From Myxococcales bacterium (GTDB lineage Bacteria > Myxococcota_A > Polyangia > Polyangiales > DASUME01), in contig JASGJH010000001.1 in the NCBI GenBank assembly GCA_047601445.1, forward strand, positions 7,264,001 through 7,328,000: DNA of 64,000 bases, written 5' to 3'. The notes under the pieces are model-generated. The model ran no database searches. It worked only from the letters and a program-made list of their open reading frames with translations, and was not told the DNA's origin. Positions 53,139 through 58,270 of this stretch are shown here, piece by piece. The position numbers and the translations under genes are program-made. Position 1 is the first letter of the stretch, and each line of letters opens with the position of its first letter.

Positions 53139-53930
53139 TCAGAACGTAAGACGAGCCGTCACTCGATCGATGCCTACTCGCAGCGACAGGCGTCGCTGGG
53201 CCGAGGCCACTGACGGTGGGGCGAACGAGCCCGGACCGTTCGTAGGCTGCATGGCCCACGGGCGTTCGCGGTAGTTATCTACCGACTGCGTGGGCTGCGT
53301 CCAGATCGCGATCTCCGTGACGGCCAGGTTCCACACCACCTCGAGGCTCGCCTGCAGCCAAACCTGGCGATTGTGGTGCGTGCCGCCCTCTCCAAAGTCG
53401 TAGTTTCGTAGGAATATGTAGATGCCCGTGGACAGTGCCCACGCGCCATCGAGAAGGTGCTCGACCACACTCCGCCCCTCCTCCTCGTCTTCCGCCGCCC
53501 GCTTGAGCAGGTGTTCTGCCTTGGCGAGTGCCCTGGCTCGCTCCTCGGGGGTGCGACGAGGCATGCGCGAAATCCGTCGCGAAGCAAAAGCTGGAACCAT
53601 GGGAAAAATGGACAGCTGGCCGATCCAGAGAACTCCTCCGATCCAGGAAGTGAGCCACACGTCTCGCTCGAGTCGGGTGTTCGCGCGCGCGTAGTAGACA
53701 GCACTGACGGTCGTATCCACGGCTGCCGCCGCGAACCAGCCGTACCACCAGATCTGAGCGTGCAGCCGCTCGCGGGCAAACGCCCCTTCGATCCAGAGCA
53801 GACGCGCGCGCACTTGCGCGTCGTCCAGCGCGGGAGCCTGCGCGGTCTCCGCAGCCGCACTGCTCACGACGAGCTGCACCATCAAGACCAGGCTAGACAG
53901 CCTTAGAGACCGCCATCCCTGCGAACGCAT
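53139..53930 (-). CDS. Hypothetical exported/membrane protein
   Basis: Signal peptide; WWYGW and IWTQPT motifs; several hydrophobic segments. Confidence 0.7.
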   Translation of the reverse strand: MRSQGWRSLRLSSLVLMVQLVVSSAAAETAQAPALDDAQVRARLLWIEGAFARERLHAQIWWYGWFAAAAVDTTVSAVYYARANTRLERDVWLTSWIGGVLWIGQLSIFPMVPAFASRRISRMPRRTPEERARALAKAEHLLKRAAEDEEEGRSVVEHLLDGAWALSTGIYIFLRNYDFGEGGTHHNRQVWLQASLEVVWNLAVTEIAIWTQPTQSVDNYRERPWAMQPTNGPGSFAPPSVASAQRRLSLRVGIDRVTARLTF

Positions 53931-54168
53931 GCTCTTCGAATTCTCTCCCGGCGGCCGAATCACGGCGATTCCAGCCCAAGATTTCCCGCGGCGATGCAAA
54001 GCCTTCATGGAAAGTGAGAGCGCGCCGATTCCGAGGAGTCTTCGGTTCTACGTCATGGCCGAGGTACCCAGCCTTGGAGCGTGCACAGGATTTCTCAAGA
54101 GAGCCGCATTTGCTTTGAAGCGACAGGGCTCCACGAGGAGAGAAGGGAGCAAGGAGCGTGTCGCTCGC

Positions 54169-54474
54169 ATGAGCTTTCGTGCGCTTTGGTTGTCATCAAC
54201 GGTGCTGATCTTGCTCTGGCAAGCACAGCTGGTCGGAGACTGGCGAGTCGACGACGCCTACATCACGTTCGCGTACTCCAAGAATCTCGCGCTTGGCCAG
54301 GGGCCTGTCTTCGGCCATGACCTGCGCGTCGAGGGCTACACCAACTTCCTTTGGATGATCCTTCAGGCGGTGCTGAACCGCGCACACGACCGGGCGCTGT
54401 TCTTTTTGGAGAAGCGTAGAAGTGGCGTCTCGCTGACGAAGCGCACGAGCCGCCGGGGCTTCAGCGTGGACTAG
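54169..54474 (+). pseudogene. N-terminal fragment of a GT-C-type membrane glycosyltransferase
   Basis: DDAYITFAYSKNLALGQGPVF...RVEGYTNFLW is an N-terminal motif of much longer proteins; ends at 101 aa with no continuation seen. Confidence 0.7.
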
Positions 54475-54769
54475 CCGTTTGAAGCGGACCCGACTGCTAC
54501 CGGGCCAAGCATCCATTGAGGATCGTCGAGCCCAGTCGGAGATCGGCTTGCCGAAACGGCCACCGTTCGAGGCCTCACCCACAGAACCGCCCTGCTGCAC
54601 ATTTTCACTCGGAACGCCTGGGCTCCTGCGGCATTCGAAGCGTCAGAGCGATCCCTGAACTGAAGAAAGCTCGTTTTCGCACGCCAACGATCACGGAATC
54701 CTGCTCGTGCTGCCATGTGTCAGTGAGCGTTCGATTGGACGCTCAGCTTCCACGCGACGGAGCGGAATC

Positions 54770-55373
54770 ATGCACGGTTGGCAGAACAAGAATGTACTGG
54801 GTCTGGGGATGGGGCTCCTGTTGGGAAGCCTTGGCGCGTGCGGTGACACGCCTCGCACTGGAGCTGGGCTGGGCGGCTACGGGGACCTCGATGGATCGTT
54901 CGATCCGGGGGACAACGGGGACGGTGATGGCGACGGAGATGGCGACGGGAACGGAGATGGAGATGGTGACGGCGACGCAGTCACGGGCTCCCATGCTCGC
55001 GACGGCGGCACGGCCAGTTGCGACGATCCGAACGGCACCGAATCTCGAGGGTTGCACCTGCAGCACCAAGGGGAAGACACGCGCCTGCTACACCGGACCC
55101 GCAGACACCCGCAACGTGGGGGCCTGCAAGGACGGCGTTCAGACGTGCACAGCCGACGGAAACGGCGAGTTCGTGTCCTTGGTCTACTCCGCCTGCAGTG
55201 GAGAAACGTTGCCGAGCGGAGATAGCTGCTCGGTGAAGCAGCCCGAGAATCCATGTCAGCAAGTGCAGGGCCAGAACGGCAACACGACTGTCAACGGAGT
55301 CATGTACTGTGAAGGCGACACGGTGAATCTGTTTGGCGACGGCGGCATTTTTGGCGGAATCTTCGGTCCTTGA
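54770..55373 (+). CDS. Cys/Asp-rich lipoprotein with +1 frameshift at about 55039
   Basis: Lipobox LGAC, GD run and CDDPNGT in one frame; NLEGCTC..CYTGP..VGACKDGVQTC in the next; 604 nt = 3n+1. Confidence 0.75.
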
Positions 55374-55771
55374 ACGACGCTTCTACCAAGCTCGTGCTGA
55401 CGTTTCTCCTCCTGCAGCTGGCGTTGCCGGCGATCGTGCTAAGCAGGAACGGTGTGACGGGGCACGATTTCTCCTGGGACATGTTCAGTCATCACCTCAG
55501 CTGTGCTCAGGTCGAGGCATACGGCAGCATGCCGTCTGGGGCTCGCTTCGAGGTAACACTCGGCAACGATTTTCCCAACTGGGCGCAGCTGAGCCGCGTT
55601 TTGACCCCCGAGCGCTTCGCGCAGTACGCGACGACCTGGCTATGTCCACGACTTCGCGAGCGCCACGGCAGTCCGGTCGCCTTGCACGTGGCGACGCGCT
55701 GCCGTGAACAGCGGAAAGGCCCCTGGTTCGCGCTGCTGGACGAGCGGCGCGACTTCTGCGGCGCGCAGTGA
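55370..55771 (+). CDS. Stand-alone second half of a vitamin-K-dependent carboxylase-like enzyme
   Basis: FLLLQLALP, FSWDMFSH and QYATTWL resemble GGCX YLLEQLFLP, YSWDMMVH and QYATCL (from memory); TTGA overlap with upstream stop. Confidence 0.7.
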   Translation: MNDASTKLVLTFLLLQLALPAIVLSRNGVTGHDFSWDMFSHHLSCAQVEAYGSMPSGARFEVTLGNDFPNWAQLSRVLTPERFAQYATTWLCPRLRERHGSPVALHVATRCREQRKGPWFALLDERRDFCGAQ

Positions 55772-56709
55772 CGCCAGCTTGCGGGGCGTCGTGGCTGGCT
55801 AGGCTACGGGTTCGCGGCCCGCTGTGGCCCCTGGCGCTTTTTCGCATAGGGTTCGGACTGGCACTCCTCGTGCAGACGCTCGTCGAAGCCGGACGTCACG
55901 CTGCCTACGCGCCCGAGCGCTTCCACTTGCCCTTGGTCCCGTTGCTTGCGGCGCCAAGCGCGCCGGTGTTCGCCATGCTGATCCGCCTGGCATTGCTCTC
56001 TGCGATCGCCACCATCCTGGGCGCGGGCAGTCGCATCGCGGTGGTGGTGTTGACCCTGGTGCATGGATATTTGTTTGCGGTGGACAGCCTGCTGTTCCGC
56101 AATCACGTGTACGCCGCGCTGCTGTTGGGAGGACTGCTGGCGCTGTCCCCGTGTGGTCAGGTGCTGTCTTTCGATGCTCTGATGCGCCGAATGCGCCGGC
56201 GGCCACCTCGACCGCGCGAAGGCAGCCTCGTCGTCGCCCAGCTGATCAAGGGACAGGTGTGGATCATCTACCTGTGGTCAGCCCTCAACAAACTGCGTCC
56301 TTCGTTCCTGGACGGCTGGGTCTTCCAACAAGAACTGCCGGCCTTGCTTCGCGAAGGGCTGCTCGCGCGTTGGCTGAACGATCGAGGAACCTCGGCCATG
56401 TGGGTCATCCTCGACGACGACGCACGAACAGCGGCGCTCGCGTGGAGCGTTCTCCTCGTCGAGCTGTTTATCGCGGTAGGGATCATGCATCGACGCCTGC
56501 GGCCGTGGGCTTGTGCCTGTGGCCTGACGCTTCACGTGGGAATTTTTCTGTCCATGAACGTGTTCACGTTCGGGTGTCTCCTCGTCGCAAGTTACCCGCT
56601 GTTTCTGGCATCGCCGCGCAGCCCGCCGCTCACGGCGTGCACAGCGAAGGCACGAGCAGACAGCACCAGGGCTCCAGTCCCTGCTCTTCCCACGGTTCCG
56701 CGTCCGTAG
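55768..56709 (+). CDS. HTTM-domain (vitamin-K-dependent gamma-carboxylase N-terminal-like) membrane protein
   Basis: LALFRIGFG, RNHVY, LSFD, GQVWIIYLWSALNKL and LH...F motifs; GTGA overlap. Confidence 0.88.
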   Translation: MTPACGASWLARLRVRGPLWPLALFRIGFGLALLVQTLVEAGRHAAYAPERFHLPLVPLLAAPSAPVFAMLIRLALLSAIATILGAGSRIAVVVLTLVHGYLFAVDSLLFRNHVYAALLLGGLLALSPCGQVLSFDALMRRMRRRPPRPREGSLVVAQLIKGQVWIIYLWSALNKLRPSFLDGWVFQQELPALLREGLLARWLNDRGTSAMWVILDDDARTAALAWSVLLVELFIAVGIMHRRLRPWACACGLTLHVGIFLSMNVFTFGCLLVASYPLFLASPRSPPLTACTAKARADSTRAPVPALPTVPRP

Positions 56710-57004
56710 CACCGAGACCCGCGTCGCGTGTGCATTCCTCGAGCAGCTCTCCGAGGGCAGCATCGGGCATTCCGGGAATCTCCGCGTCCGCCAGGGGGCC
56801 GGCATCAGGGGTCGTAGCCACGTGCCCTCGTGCAGCGTCGCGTGGGTCGACGGCGCCATCGTCGGCCATGTCAGCGTCGTAGTCTCCGGCATCAAGCGAG
56901 AGGGCCTCGCCGGAGTCCGGCCGAAGGTCACTCCCGAGCTTGCCTTCTCGCGTGCTTGCACACCCCACCACGAGCAGAAGACAGGCTCCAAGCGCTCGCT
57001 TCAT
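56630..57004 (-). CDS. Small acidic lipoprotein
   Basis: MKR plus hydrophobic stretch and VVGC lipobox; ATGA overlap with upstream anti-sigma gene; 3' end overlaps the HTTM gene by 80 nt. Confidence 0.65.
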   Translation of the reverse strand: MKRALGACLLLVVGCASTREGKLGSDLRPDSGEALSLDAGDYDADMADDGAVDPRDAARGHVATTPDAGPLADAEIPGMPDAALGELLEECTRDAGLGATDAEPWEEQGLEPWCCLLVPSLCTP

Positions 57005-57723
57005 CGCGTCTCACCGAGCGAGCAGGCTTGACGAATTCGAGGCCCGAACAAGTTTTGGGGAAAGCGGCTCAGAAACGCAGCGGCTTCCGGGTGCGCGCGT
57101 GACGGGGCTTCGGTGCACCGCAGCAGGAGCGCAAGGCCTTGCTGTTCGGGGCCTAGGCCACCGCGCGGGAAGCGGGCACGACACTCGGCAAGCAAACGAT
57201 GCGCGCGCTCTAGATCATGCTGAGCGATGGCGATCGAAGCGTCCTGTAGCAGACGGACCTCCGCCCGTGAGTCAGACGGGTGCGCGGCTGCGCGCTGGGC
57301 TGGTCGCACCGCGACCCGGTCGTCGTGTGGAGGCTGAGTCACGGGGACGGCGGAGACCACAGGCGTGCCGGCTCTCGGCGAGAGTCCCGGGGTCACCACA
57401 GGCGCGCTCGAGACGACGGGAGGCTCGAGAGTCGGCGAGGAAACCAGGGGCGGGCCGCCGGGAAGTGCGACGTAGACTCCCGCGGCGACCAAATTCGCGA
57501 GGACCATGGCTGACAGCCACTTTAGCGCAGCGCTGGCGAACCATGGAGCGCTCGAAGCGATCGGGCCGGGCTCCGACGCCAATCCCGGCGGGGGTGCTTC
57601 GAGCGTCGCGGCTGCGGTGAGTACGGCGAGCCGAACGCGCTCCCTCACGTCAGGACCAGGCAGATCGTGCGCTTTTTTGGCCAGTTCGAGGAAGGCCCGG
57701 TGGCGGGTGGGAAGCTCATTCAT
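57001..57723 (-). CDS. Putative anti-sigma factor (TM, Pro-rich linker, TPR-like C-terminus)
   Basis: AEVRLL..A, RFPRGGL.PE and FL.RFP motifs; coupled to the ECF sigma gene. Confidence 0.75.
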   Translation of the reverse strand: MNELPTRHRAFLELAKKAHDLPGPDVRERVRLAVLTAAATLEAPPPGLASEPGPIASSAPWFASAALKWLSAMVLANLVAAGVYVALPGGPPLVSSPTLEPPVVSSAPVVTPGLSPRAGTPVVSAVPVTQPPHDDRVAVRPAQRAAAHPSDSRAEVRLLQDASIAIAQHDLERAHRLLAECRARFPRGGLGPEQQGLALLLRCTEAPSRAHPEAAAFLSRFPQNLFGPRIRQACSLGETR

Positions 57724-58270
57724 GCGACCATCCCCTGCTACGCATAAACTCCTCGAATCGGCTGCGCGCCGCGCGAATGCGGGCATAGACGGTGTTCACA
57801 TTGGTGGAGATCAGCACGCCAATTTCGGGAGCGCTCAGCCCTTCGAGGTCCGCCAGCACGAAGGCGACCCGCTTGTCCTCGTCCAGCTCGTCGAGAAAAG
57901 TCTCGAGCATCGCCGCTGCCTGGGCCTCCGCCGTGCGCTGACAGGCGTCGGGCGCGTCGGACACCGCGTGTTCAGTGTCGAGCTCCCCGGCAGATCGGTG
58001 CGCCTTACGTCGGTAGTCTTTGGCCACCCGCAGTGCGATCGCAAACAGAAAGCCCTTGGCCGATGCCTCCGGCCTGAGCTCGGCCCACTTTCTATGCAGG
58101 ATGACGAAGCTATCTTGCGCCGCGTCCTCGGCCACGCTCGCAGCGACTCCAAAGCGACGCAGGGTGCGCCAGACGAAGTCGAAATGCTCGCGGTAGAGCT
58201 CGTCGAACGTGAGGGGCGCGTGCAGCACGTCCTCGTTCCGGGCCTCGAGCCTTTGGTGGACCGAGATCAT
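57716..58270 (-). CDS. ECF RNA polymerase sigma factor
   Basis: LYREHFDFVWRTLRRFG, EDAAQD and FVLADLEGLSAPEI...NTVYARI. Confidence 0.93.
   Translation of the reverse strand: MISVHQRLEARNEDVLHAPLTFDELYREHFDFVWRTLRRFGVAASVAEDAAQDSFVILHRKWAELRPEASAKGFLFAIALRVAKDYRRKAHRSAGELDTEHAVSDAPDACQRTAEAQAAAMLETFLDELDEDKRVAFVLADLEGLSAPEIGVLISTNVNTVYARIRAARSRFEEFMRSRGWSHE

What the first reader, a model, noticed from the sequence alone, without database searches (positions are those of the whole stretch)
54770..56709. Split, order-reversed vitamin-K-dependent gamma-carboxylase-like system coupled to a lipoprotein
Seen: three genes with overlapping stop/start codons (TTGA at 55370, GTGA at 55768). Gene 3 has LALFRIGFG, RNHVY, LSFD and KGQVWIIYLWSALNKL. 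Gene 2 has FLLLQLALP, GHDFSWDMFSH and QYATTWL. Knowledge (recalled, not aligned): human GGCX has LAVFRFLFG, NNHSY (H160), RGQIFIVYFIAGVKKL (catalytic K218), and later YLLEQLFLP, GYSWDMMVH (Glu-substrate region) and KQYATCL. The two halves of one carboxylase-like enzyme therefore appear as separate genes, with the later half first and the His and Lys kept. The layout resembles SdpA/SdpB and DUF5819/HTTM pairs, but the motifs look closer to GGCX. Inference: a heterodimeric, possibly menaquinone-dependent enzyme that modifies or processes the co-transcribed lipoprotein.
Basis: partly seen in the sequence, partly recalled or inferred. Interest (0 to 1): 0.85.

Follow-up and report, generated by a model that had tools for sequence, protein, structure and literature searches.

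The report
Split vitamin-K-carboxylase-like membrane enzyme pair
Two overlapping genes of a myxobacterium encode the two halves of a relative of the human vitamin-K-dependent carboxylase as separate proteins that are predicted to bind each other; this two-gene layout is common in the phylum, and the proposed link to the upstream lipoprotein gene, which is frameshifted here, remains only a possibility.

Summary
The motifs and both 4-nt overlaps (TTGA 55370, GTGA 55768) are real. Gene 3 (55768-56709) is an HTTM protein (Pfam E 1e-25). It keeps the counterparts of human GGCX N159, H160, K218, R276, H287 and F299; D263 is Glu and W223 is Phe. Gene 2 (55370-55771) is a stand-alone homologue of the GGCX lumenal domain: a family profile hits only GGCX in the PDB (E 0.007, residues 360-488), hhalign against fused bacterial lumenal domains gives 98.1% (E 1e-13), and the top 15 Foldseek hits are GGCX. 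Predicted complex: ipSAE 0.90 against 0.01 for the best control.

The layout is not unusual. In Myxococcota, 27 of 30 sampled loci have small gene then HTTM, usually with a 4-nt overlap. This genome has at least two further split pairs and three fused copies. A 2026 preprint already describes DUF5819+HTTM as a split bacterial GGCX-like complex.

Gene 1 is not one ORF. A frameshift near 55040 separates the lipoprotein signal from the Cys-rich domain. The gene recurs in only one other DNA locus, where it is also broken, and as a trace in one protein record. GGCX Tyr395, which binds Glu, is not conserved. Chemistry and substrate are untested.

Verdict: a new member of a known kind.

The parts
54770..55039 (+). 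Gene 1, first part (frame of the ATG at 54770): predicted lipoprotein signal MHGWQNKNVLGLGMGLLLGSLGAC, then a Gly/Asp-rich linker (GDGDGD...) up to ...SCDDPNGT. Read on in this frame it stops at 55225.
   Evidence: Same architecture as the L039 orthologue (signal ...LAAGC, G/A/S-rich linker, then C..P..N.EGC). The lipobox fit is judged by eye against the recalled PROSITE-type pattern; no predictor was run.
55037..55041 (+). Frameshift site in gene 1: one base too many relative to the reading frame kept in the orthologue (PNGT | NLEGC against PTSNNMEGC in L039). It could be a real mutation or an assembly error; this could not be decided.
   Evidence: GC3 supports the second frame downstream (0.75 at 55041-55370). 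No sequencing run was listed to check the base.
55041..55373 (+). Gene 1, second part (+1 frame): Cys-rich module NLEGCTCSTKGKTRACYTGP...VMYCEGD and a Gly-rich hydrophobic tail LFGDGGIFGGIFGP. Its stop TGA at 55371-55373 overlaps the TTG start of gene 2.
   Evidence: 38% identical over residues 1-93 to the L039 upstream gene (E 5e-20). Similar modules occur in large 'MopE-related' PF11617 proteins of myxobacteria. No Pfam family of its own.
55370..55771 (+). Gene 2, 133 aa: short N-terminus, one predicted TM helix (res 3-25) with the LQLxLP motif, the loop DFSWDMFSH (res 33-41) and an alpha/beta domain with conserved Cys45, Cys92 and Cys130. It is a stand-alone homologue of GGCX residues about 360-488 (last TM helix plus the first lumenal domain).
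   Evidence: PF22777 E 0.015, 15.6 bits, below the 27.7 cutoff. 19 homologues, all 95-194 aa. Profile against PDB: only GGCX, E 0.007. 13 of 20 family members hit PF22777, best 2.1e-8. hhalign 98.1%, E 1.1e-13, with 11 of 11 controls below 0.6%. AF2 pLDDT 89.4. Foldseek top 15 are all GGCX.
55768..56709 (+). Gene 3, 313 aa: multi-pass HTTM membrane protein, the counterpart of the GGCX catalytic (epoxidase) core, with N112, H113, K175, F180, E232, R245, H256 and F268. Its GTG start overlaps the gene 2 stop (GTGA).
   Evidence: PF05090 E 1.1e-25, 91.2 bits. phmmer against human GGCX E 1.1e-5. Profile A1 5e-10. Residues mapped through alignment A3 and its profile hit to 13ib_A.

Best explanation
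Genes 2 and 3 encode the two halves of a vitamin-K-dependent-carboxylase-like enzyme as separate proteins, which are predicted to assemble in the inner membrane into a GGCX-like complex that would use reduced menaquinone and O2 to make a strong base acting on a still unknown periplasmic substrate.

Shown: gene 3 is an HTTM protein that keeps the counterparts of the GGCX residues for quinol deprotonation and CO2/Glu handling (K218->K175, H160->H113, N159->N112, F299->F268, D263->E232). Gene 2 is homologous to the last TM helix plus first lumenal domain of GGCX and keeps the SWDM core (W399->W36, D400->D37, M401->M38).

Predicted: the TM helix and the DFSWDMFSH loop of gene 2 pack on the K175 helix and the N112/H113 loop of gene 3, rebuilding the GGCX active-site cap.

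Inferred: the chemistry is quinol oxygenation that generates a base, followed by proton abstraction from a substrate and possibly carboxylation. It is probably not classical Glu gamma-carboxylation. The GGCX propeptide-binding C-terminal region (after about residue 488) is absent, and the Glu-binding Tyr395 has no conserved counterpart.

The pair belongs to an old, widespread Myxococcota family of coupled 'small subunit then HTTM' genes. The upstream Cys-rich lipoprotein is the only candidate substrate in cis, but it is broken here and the link is weak.
For: Gene 3:
- PF05090 E 1.1e-25; human GGCX chains E 1.1e-5 and 5e-10 with profile A1.
- Catalytic residues were mapped through A3 and its profile alignment to 13ib_A (E 8e-75).
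- Roles of N159, H160, W223, F299, Y395, K218 and D263 come from passages of PMC12647623 and of preprint 10.64898/2026.03.26.714578 (D263E keeps 25% activity).

Gene 2:
- All 8 of 8 PDB hits of profile A2 are GGCX, E 0.007-0.008, profile 4-130 against residues 360-488.
- 13 of 20 members hit PF22777 at E<=1, best 2.1e-8.
- hhalign against 21 fused bacterial lumenal domains gives 98.1%, E 1.1e-13, 128 columns. Ten shuffled and one reversed control all stay <=0.59%.
- The A2 profile finds the lumenal domain of this genome's own fused paralogue at E 7e-6.
- AF2 model pLDDT 89.4. Foldseek ranks 1-15 and 17 are GGCX (E 0.015-1.0, prob 0.85-1.00, TM by query 0.45-0.58). The best non-GGCX row has prob 0.09.
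- ESM Atlas structure search: the top row is a fused HTTM+PF22777 cluster, TM 0.59.

Complex: ipSAE 0.90, 0.83, 0.90 in three runs against a best control of 0.01. The mark was reached by 116 of 157 solved complexes and 2 of 215 mismatched pairs. Runs agree in >=95% of contacts and partner pLDDT is >=87. Gene 2 residues 1-24 and 32-42 touch gene 3 residues 107-115 and 155-189.

Conservation of the pair:
- 4-nt overlap and order are kept in L039 (gene 2 44% identical, E 3e-28) and L043.
- 27 of 30 phylum loci are split in the same order.
- 20 of 32 pairs have an exact 4-nt stop/start overlap.

Cofactor supply: 2 MqnA/D-type genes and 1 VKOR homologue in the genome.
Against: - Gene 2 alone is below the Pfam cutoff (15.6 against 27.7 bits), does not find GGCX by phmmer, and matches the fused paralogue only at E 0.68 in pairwise BLASTP.
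- No Foldseek E-value reaches 0.001.
- The complex pass may come from the model's memory of the solved single-chain GGCX. It shows likeness, not binding.
- GGCX Tyr395 falls in a 4-residue stretch missing from the gene 2 family, and the neighbouring position is variable.
- The H404 counterpart is His in only 8 of 20 members. N290 is Ile.
- There is no expression or biochemical evidence.
- Close orthologues are rare: 2 of 401 genomes of the order, and 0 of 9 other genomes of the genus.
- A broken first gene in the operon could mean that the locus is decaying.
Confidence: 0.62

Rival explanations
1. A cis-encoded protein maturation system like SdpABC or the linaridin clusters. The split HTTM pair would modify or process the product of gene 1, a secreted Cys-rich lipoprotein with a Gly-rich hydrophobic C-terminal tail, for example by carboxylation of Asp/Glu or by maturation of the tail.
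For: - Gene 1 ends in a TTGA overlap with gene 2.
- The same three-gene order, with a homologous Cys-rich gene, occurs in L039. The N-terminal extension of P0011 carries the same ...NG...C(E) motif just before the gene 2 homologue.
- In B. subtilis, SdpA/SdpB-type pairs are encoded with a signal-bearing precursor that has a hydrophobic C-terminal domain (PMC6818787, passages).
- HTTM proteins are standard parts of linaridin clusters (PMC9927463, passage).
- One distant split locus (L067) has an open frame with 72 Cys directly upstream, and several small subunits carry Cys-rich inserts.
Against: - Gene 1 is frameshifted here. In L039 it has a TAG right after the lipobox Cys and a second frameshift in a C5 run.
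- No gene 1 homologue was found in the other 26 split loci from the phylum search, and upstream genes there vary.
- In sdpABC the precursor lies downstream, not upstream.
- The linker rich in Asp here is Ala/Gly/Ser-rich in L039, so it is not a conserved acceptor.
- Gene 1's module is a common myxobacterial Cys-rich module.
- No binding test of gene 1 with the enzyme was run.
Confidence: 0.2
2. A quinol epoxidase or oxidase without carboxylation. The pair only oxygenates menaquinol, or uses the base on a lipid or small molecule, and has no protein substrate.
For: - The quinol-side residues are conserved (K175, E232) while the Glu-side Tyr395 is not.
- The GGCX propeptide-binding region is absent: gene 2 ends at the counterpart of about residue 488.
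- Truncated viral homologues are proposed to act as epoxidases coupled to lipid desaturases (preprint 10.64898/2026.03.26.714578, passages).
- From recall, not from any call: the Leptospira orthologue was reported to have epoxidase but no carboxylase activity.
Against: - The CO2-pocket and Glu-side residues H113, N112 and F268 are invariant or kept.
- The lumenal-type cap with the SWDM loop is retained and strongly conserved (W36 in 19 of 20, M38 in 20 of 20). That would be unnecessary for a bare epoxidase; the viral enzymes lack this region.
Confidence: 0.13
3. A decaying, non-functional locus. The operon is a remnant in which gene 1 is already a pseudogene and genes 2 and 3 are no longer used.
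For: - Gene 1 is frameshifted here and doubly disrupted in L039.
- This exact subfamily is absent from the other 9 genomes of the genus searched.
- No RNA evidence is available.
Against: - Genes 2 and 3 are intact, keep the coupled 4-nt overlap, and keep every family-invariant residue.
- The same two genes are intact, as far as the contigs reach, in L039 and L043 at 43-44% identity.
- The frameshift may be an assembly error; this could not be checked.
Confidence: 0.05

Closest known systems
[quoted passage not shown]
   Same: HTTM core with N159, H160, K218, R276, H287 and F299 kept and D263 as Glu. The last TM helix (LEQLFLP against LQLALP), the YSWDMMVH loop (DFSWDMFSH here) and the first lumenal alpha/beta domain are all present in gene 2.
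   Different: Two polypeptides instead of one, with the gene for the later part first. There is nothing beyond the counterpart of residue about 488, so the propeptide-binding/clamp part is missing. Tyr395 is not conserved, N290 is Ile and W223 is Phe. The stand-alone domain has conserved Cys residues that the fused bacterial forms lack.
Fused bacterial HTTM + VKGC_lumenal_dom proteins (three paralogues in this genome; MloH of malonomycin biosynthesis is the characterised example, cited in PMC12647623 and in preprint 10.64898/2026.08.19.745780)
   Same: The same two domains. hhalign of the gene 2 family against their lumenal domains gives 98.1%. HTTM invariants are shared.
   Different: Those proteins are one chain, HTTM first. 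In a quick tree, 22 fused and 28 split HTTM domains fall on opposite sides of one branch (SH-aLRT 99). The split here is therefore not a recent fission of a fused paralogue (midpoint root only, careful search unfinished, rows chosen by my own searches).
DUF5819 + HTTM gene pairs (AlphaFold 3 prediction of a split bacterial GGCX-like complex; bioRxiv 10.64898/2026.08.19.745780, passages read)
   Same: Adjacent genes. The small protein has an N-terminal TM helix and an extracytoplasmic domain, predicted to take the place of one GGCX TM helix and the lumenal cap. A conserved Lys lies near the predicted menaquinol site.
   Different: Gene 2 gives no DUF5819 hit in the Pfam scan at E<=1 and instead matches PF22777. 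The HTTM partner here has no DCC1-like C-terminal domain.
SdpA/SdpB (and YitP/YitO) of Bacillus subtilis toxin-maturation operons
   Same: Order small protein then HTTM protein, co-transcribed with a signal-bearing protein (PMC6818787, passages).
   Different: No SdpA-family hit for gene 2 in the Pfam scan. The candidate substrate gene is upstream, not downstream, is a Cys-rich lipoprotein rather than an SdpC-like precursor, and is broken. No immunity or regulator genes were seen beside it. SdpA itself was not compared directly.

Membership tests
HTTM domain (Pfam PF05090), gene 3 | Match to the family model above its curated cutoff | tested here: met
   E 1.1e-25, 91.2 bits against a cutoff of 27.7; residues 22-281 on model 9-256/259.
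GGCX-like catalytic core, gene 3 | Catalytic Lys218 and His160/Asn159, Asp263, Phe299 | tested here: met
   K175, H113, N112 and F268 are kept and D263 is replaced by E232. W223 is F180 and N290 is I259. Residue roles come from PMC12647623 and preprint 10.64898/2026.03.26.714578.
VKGC_lumenal_dom (Pfam PF22777), gene 2 | Match to the family model above its curated cutoff | tested here: not met
   15.6 bits, E 0.015, cutoff 27.7; in the genome search 14.7 bits. Gene 2 is therefore not a Pfam member by the curated rule.
VKGC lumenal domain, homology in the wider sense, gene 2 | Profile and fold similarity over the whole domain, with controls | tested here: met
   Profile A2 against PDB: 8 of 8 hits are GGCX, E 0.007. 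13 of 20 members hit PF22777, best 2.1e-8. hhalign 98.1%, E 1.1e-13, with 11 of 11 controls <=0.59%. Foldseek top 15 are GGCX.
Glu gamma-carboxylase (GGCX function) | Glu-binding Tyr395 and the 393-404 segment | tested here: not met
   W399, D400 and M401 are kept (W36 in 19/20, D37 in 15/20, M38 in 20/20). G393-G396, including Y395, aligns to a gap in the family profile, and the adjacent residue 32 is variable. The H404 counterpart is His in 8 of 20.
Glu gamma-carboxylase (GGCX function) | Propeptide-binding / clamp region C-terminal of the first lumenal domain | tested here: not met
   Gene 2 (133 aa) aligns to GGCX 360-488 only and then ends. Gene 3 ends after the HTTM core.
Glu gamma-carboxylase (GGCX function) | Quinol epoxidation and substrate carboxylation activity | not testable with these tools
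   No biochemical data. Only the cofactor supply was checked: 2 MqnA/D-type genes and 1 VKOR homologue in the genome.
Two-subunit (split) HTTM enzymes: SdpA/SdpB, DUF5819/HTTM | Small single-TM protein gene directly upstream of, and coupled to, the HTTM gene | tested here: met
   GTGA overlap at 55768. The same holds in L039 and L043. 27 of 30 phylum loci are split in this order. 20 of 32 pairs overlap by exactly 4 nt.
Two-subunit (split) HTTM enzymes: SdpA/SdpB, DUF5819/HTTM | Small subunit belongs to the SdpA or DUF5819 sequence family | tested here: not met
   The Pfam scan of gene 2 at E<=1 returns only PF22777. Eleven other myxobacterial small subunits return only sub-threshold PF22777 or nothing relevant at E<=0.1. 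That Pfam holds SdpA and DUF5819 models is recalled, not shown by a call.
Two-subunit (split) HTTM enzymes | The two proteins form a complex | tested here: inconclusive
   Prediction only: ipSAE 0.90 against 0.01 for the best control. The mark was reached by 116 of 157 solved and 2 of 215 mismatched pairs. The pass may reflect the solved single-chain GGCX.
Linaridin-type RiPP cluster | Short precursor peptide plus alpha/beta-hydrolase (LinE-type) and other tailoring genes beside the HTTM gene | tested here: not met
   The neighbours scanned are an amine oxidase, a ketosynthase, an NAD-binding reductase, an ECF sigma factor and proteins without a family. No hydrolase or short precursor was seen.

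The most novel reading that the evidence does not exclude
The split enzyme is a menaquinone-dependent protein-modifying carboxylase whose natural substrate is the co-transcribed Cys-rich lipoprotein. That would make this lipoprotein a defined bacterial protein substrate of a GGCX-type enzyme, with the stand-alone lumenal subunit acting as the substrate-selecting cap.
Probability: 0.1. Interest if true: 0.8.

Novelty: new member of a known kind. Interest (0 to 1): 0.4.

Why it matters
What bacterial relatives of the vitamin-K-dependent carboxylase do, and on which substrates, is largely open. In the papers read here only MloH is described as characterised, and the mechanisms of the Sdp and linaridin systems are described as unclear.

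This locus shows at sequence, profile and fold level that the small partner of one bacterial HTTM protein is the detached lumenal domain of the carboxylase. It also shows that Myxococcota hold a large, unannotated family of such coupled pairs: 83 of 401 genomes match the small-subunit profile, fused forms included. This gives a compact two-protein system for testing how the cap and the quinol-activating core cooperate. The conserved W36/M38 loop and K175 are obvious probes.

The locus itself is not exceptional, and its proposed lipoprotein substrate is poorly supported.

Tried and rejected
- Word-indexed protein search with gene 2 found only the protein itself (1 of 18 candidates). The exhaustive HMMER search was needed.
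- phmmer of gene 2 alone against the PDB gave three chance hits and no GGCX.
- BLASTP of gene 2 against a fused paralogue gave E 0.68, and against the L014 small protein E 0.16.
- Close orthologues in relatives: gene 3's best non-self hit in 40 relatives was 34% identical. Gene 2 was convincing in only 1 further genome of 400 in the order.
- Genome contigs and metagenome-contig scans gave 18 and 5 loci. Only L039 and L043 belong to the same subfamily.
- Sequencing runs: none was listed for window 54600-56800, and no RNA holder was listed. The frameshift could not be checked against reads and expression is unknown.
- The promoter/terminator scan of 54000-57200 found 0 promoter-like sites and 3 terminator-like sites, against 3.0 expected by chance. 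It was uninformative.
- GC3 could not decide the frame in 54770-55040, where the GD repeat sits.
- Pfam gave nothing for gene 1 in either frame or for the flanking ORFs 53139-54008, 53929-54474 and 56630-57004.
- Earlier scan notes by place and by sequence returned nothing.
- A programmed frameshift in gene 1 was considered and dropped. The breaks in the window and in L039 lie at different places and no slippery motif was recognised by eye.
- A recent fission of one of the genome's fused paralogues was considered and rejected by the tree.
Full report
WHAT IS THERE

The window is G000:C1:7264001-7328000 of a 9.5-Mb single-contig genome. Its nearest relatives in public collections are Polyangiales/Sandaracinaceae MAGs.

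On the + strand, ORFs 55370-55771 (133 aa, TTG start) and 55768-56709 (313 aa, GTG start) overlap by 4 nt (GTGA). The TTG of the first overlaps a TGA stop (TTGA at 55370-55373).

The ATG at 54770 opens a frame that encodes a lipoprotein-type signal (MHGWQNKNVLGLGMGLLLGSLGAC) and a Gly/Asp-rich linker, and stops at 55225. The Cys-rich sequence that ends at the TTGA overlap lies in the +1 frame. In the orthologous locus L039 the signal, linker and Cys-rich part lie in a single reading frame, though that frame is itself interrupted there (see the lipoprotein section). Aligning the two (…CDDPNGT | NLEGCTCS against …CGPTSNNMEGCSCS) places one extra base near 55037-55041. GC3 (0.75) confirms the second frame downstream of the break and is uninformative upstream. 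No sequencing run was listed, so mutation and assembly error cannot be told apart.

GENE 3

- It matches Pfam HTTM at E 1.1e-25. It matches human GGCX chains at E 1.1e-5 alone and at 5e-10 as a 4-sequence profile.
- I aligned it with 5 split and 10 fused bacterial homologues (A3). That profile aligns to full-length human GGCX (13ib_A) at E 8e-75, which allows residue mapping: N159->N112, H160->H113, K218->K175, W223->F180, D263->E232, R276->R245, H287->H256, N290->I259, F299->F268.
- According to passages of PMC12647623, K218 deprotonates the hydroquinone. N159, H160 and Y395 hold the substrate Glu carboxylate. H160 and F299 form the CO2 pocket.
- A preprint (10.64898/2026.03.26.714578) cites D263E as retaining 25% activity.
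- The quinol-activating and CO2-side residues of the core are therefore kept.

GENE 2

Evidence from the protein alone is weak:
- PF22777 (VKGC lumenal domain) E 0.015, 15.6 bits, below the 27.7 cutoff.
- No GGCX hit by phmmer.
- E 0.68 against a fused paralogue by BLASTP.

Family-level evidence is strong:
- An exhaustive HMMER search found 19 homologues (12 at E<=1e-10). All are 95-194 aa, so all are stand-alone.
- Their profile (A2) hits only GGCX in the PDB (8 of 8 hits, E 0.007-0.008), aligning profile positions 4-130 with GGCX residues 360-488.
- 13 of the 20 aligned members hit PF22777, best E 2.1e-8.
- hhalign of A2 against 21 lumenal domains cut from fused bacterial proteins gives 98.1% probability, E 1.1e-13, over 128 columns. 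Ten column-shuffled controls and one reversed control give at most 0.59%.
- The A2 profile also finds the lumenal domain of this genome's own fused paralogue at E 7e-6.
- The AF2 model has pLDDT 89.4: one long helix (3-25), then an alpha/beta domain. In Foldseek against the PDB, ranks 1-15 and 17 are GGCX (E 0.015-1.0, prob 0.85-1.00, TM by query 0.45-0.58). The best non-GGCX row has prob 0.09, but no E-value reaches 0.001.
- The ESM Atlas structure search ranks a fused HTTM+PF22777 cluster first (TM 0.59) and a stand-alone PF22777 cluster second.

Residue mapping:
- W399->W36 (19 of 20 members), D400->D37 (15 of 20), M401->M38 (20 of 20), H404->H41 (8 of 20).
- GGCX G393-G396, including the Glu-binding Y395, aligns to a gap in the family, and the neighbouring position is variable.
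- Cys45 (19/20), Cys92 (20/20) and Cys130 (17/20) are conserved. The fused lumenal domains have 0-2 Cys. This fits a separately folded periplasmic domain with disulfides, which is an inference.

DO THE TWO PROTEINS FIT TOGETHER?

The complex prediction scored ipSAE 0.90, 0.83 and 0.90 in three runs, against 0.01 for the best of three controls. The mark was reached by 116 of 157 solved complexes and 2 of 215 mismatched pairs. The runs agree in at least 95% of contacts, and the partner's pLDDT is at least 87.

The TM helix of gene 2 (residues 1-24) and its 32-42 loop touch gene 3 residues 107-115 (the N112/H113 loop) and 155-189 (the K175 helix). W36 contacts residues 112, 166, 167, 170, 171 and 174. 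This is what a detached GGCX lumenal part should do. However, GGCX is solved as one chain, so the pass may be memory of that fold. It shows likeness, not binding.

HOW COMMON IS THE LAYOUT?

- This genome has 8 HTTM matches (7 above cutoff). Three are fused HTTM+lumenal proteins of 461-479 aa. There are at least two further split pairs: L007 with a 4-nt overlap, and L008, whose small ORF matches A2 at E 1e-9.
- With the A2 profile, 83 of 401 sampled genomes of the phylum have a match at E<=1e-4, fused forms included.
- Of the 30 loci returned, 27 have the small gene directly upstream of an HTTM gene on the same strand, 1 is fused, and in 2 no HTTM was detected.
- Of 32 pairs examined, 20 have an exact 4-nt stop/start overlap. 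Three more (L007, L073, L089) show ATGA or GTGA at the junction but were missed by my coordinate handling.
- Most distant members carry DERFAWRMFS instead of DFSWDMFS.
- None of 11 small subunits scanned reaches any Pfam cutoff, so the family is effectively unannotated.
- In a quick ML tree of 50 HTTM domains, the 22 fused and 28 split forms separate on one branch (SH-aLRT 99). The window's protein groups with L043, L082, L065, L007 and L014. Caveats: the careful search was unfinished, the root is midpoint only, and the rows were chosen by my searches. The split state is therefore old, not a recent fission.
- The exact subfamily is rare: 2 of 401 genomes of the order and none of the other 9 genomes of the genus, plus L043 and two ENA proteins at 51% identity.

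THE LIPOPROTEIN

- L039 (a Sandaracinaceae MAG contig) has the same trio. Its upstream gene has a lipobox (…LAAGC), a G/A/S-rich linker, and a Cys-rich part 38% identical to the window's (E 5e-20).
- That copy is also disrupted. It has an in-frame TAG directly after the lipobox Cys and a frameshift in a run of five C near the 3' end.
- Protein P0011 carries, as an N-terminal extension, the end of such a module (…QNGWGFNPDGTMWCEE).
- No homologue was found in the other 26 split loci from the phylum search. Upstream genes there differ: regulators, ferredoxin-like domains, other secreted proteins, and in L067 an open frame with 72 Cys.
- Related Cys-rich modules occur in large 'MopE-related' PF11617 proteins.
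- The link is therefore conserved only within the narrow subfamily, and every DNA copy seen is broken.

MECHANISM

I commit to the following reading. Genes 2 and 3 form a two-subunit GGCX-like enzyme. K175 would deprotonate menaquinol, oxygenation would generate a strong base, and a proton would be taken from a substrate held under the cap formed by gene 2. CO2 addition is possible because the H113/F268 pocket is kept.

- Shown: homology and residue conservation.
- Predicted: assembly of the two proteins.
- Inferred: cofactor, chemistry and substrate. The genome has MqnA/D-type genes and a VKOR homologue.

Classical Glu carboxylation with propeptide recognition is unlikely, because the clamp region is absent and Y395 is not conserved.

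COMPARISON WITH WHAT IS KNOWN

- The idea of a split bacterial GGCX is already in print for DUF5819+HTTM, as an AlphaFold 3 prediction. The same text names MloH as the fused, characterised bacterial carboxylase (bioRxiv 10.64898/2026.08.19.745780, passages read; MloH is also in PMC12647623).
- SdpA/SdpB-type pairs (PMC6818787) and linaridin HTTM proteins (PMC9927463) are the known functional contexts.
- Stand-alone PF22777 clusters exist in the ESM Atlas.
- Searches for HTTM with SdpA/SdpB, with gamma-carboxylase and bacteria, and with MloH returned no paper on this myxobacterial family. That covers only the library searched.
- Supplements of the bioRxiv preprint could not be read and may list related pairs.
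- Earlier notes of this scan (AI notes, unchecked) report similar split HTTM operons and Cys-rich lipoproteins beside VKGC-like enzymes in other genomes. They are leads, not support.

VERDICT

The core observation is real. The split-enzyme reading is well supported by homology and by prediction. It is, however, a new member of a known and widespread kind. The lipoprotein coupling, which drove the high first-stage score, is weak, and the gene is frameshifted.

Noticed in passing
L039:2830-3480 (orthologous locus, Sandaracinaceae MAG contig): The gene 1 orthologue has an in-frame TAG immediately after the lipobox Cys and needs a +1 shift in a run of five C to reach its Gly-rich C-terminus. Both DNA copies of this lipoprotein gene seen here are therefore disrupted, at different places.
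   Followed up: partly
G000:C1:8757757-8758350 (L007) and G000:C1:3237166-3238406 (L008): These are two further split small-gene/HTTM pairs in the same genome, beside three fused HTTM+lumenal paralogues (L009-L011) and two more HTTM loci (L005, L006) whose partners were not examined.
   Followed up: partly
L064, L067, L068, L070, L071 (small subunits of distant split pairs): Their lumenal-like subunits carry a roughly 60-residue C-terminal insertion with about 8 Cys and a D-x-D-x-D-G-x-P-D motif (for example DADADGVPD). In L067 an open frame with 72 Cys lies directly upstream. Cys-rich modules recur around this enzyme family in different arrangements.
   Followed up: no
L063 and L066: The small-subunit reading frame runs on upstream, without a stop, into a ferredoxin/NuoG-like Cys-cluster region (…CHVPGL…CRMC…C…CVHCDRCIRAC…). 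Whether this is a true fusion or just an open high-GC frame was not resolved.
   Followed up: no
window 56630-58270, minus strand: A convergent operon holds an ECF sigma factor (57716-58270, Sigma70_r2/r4), an overlapping 261-aa protein without a family (57001-57786) and a small predicted lipoprotein (56630-57004, MKRALGACLLLVVGC…). The 3' end of the lipoprotein gene overlaps the 3' end of gene 3 by 80 bases.
   Followed up: no
window 53929-54474, plus strand: This 181-aa ORF just upstream of gene 1 has no Pfam match. Its hydrophobic N-terminal part (…[35 protein letters not shown]…) breaks off early. It may be a gene fragment, which would fit local decay or rearrangement.
   Followed up: no
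P0011 (homologue of gene 2 from the representative library): The called protein begins inside a gene-1-like Cys-rich module and runs without a stop into the gene 2 homologue. This is either a mis-called start over overlapping genes or a read-through form. A periplasmic Cys-rich domain before the TM helix would give the wrong topology.
   Followed up: no
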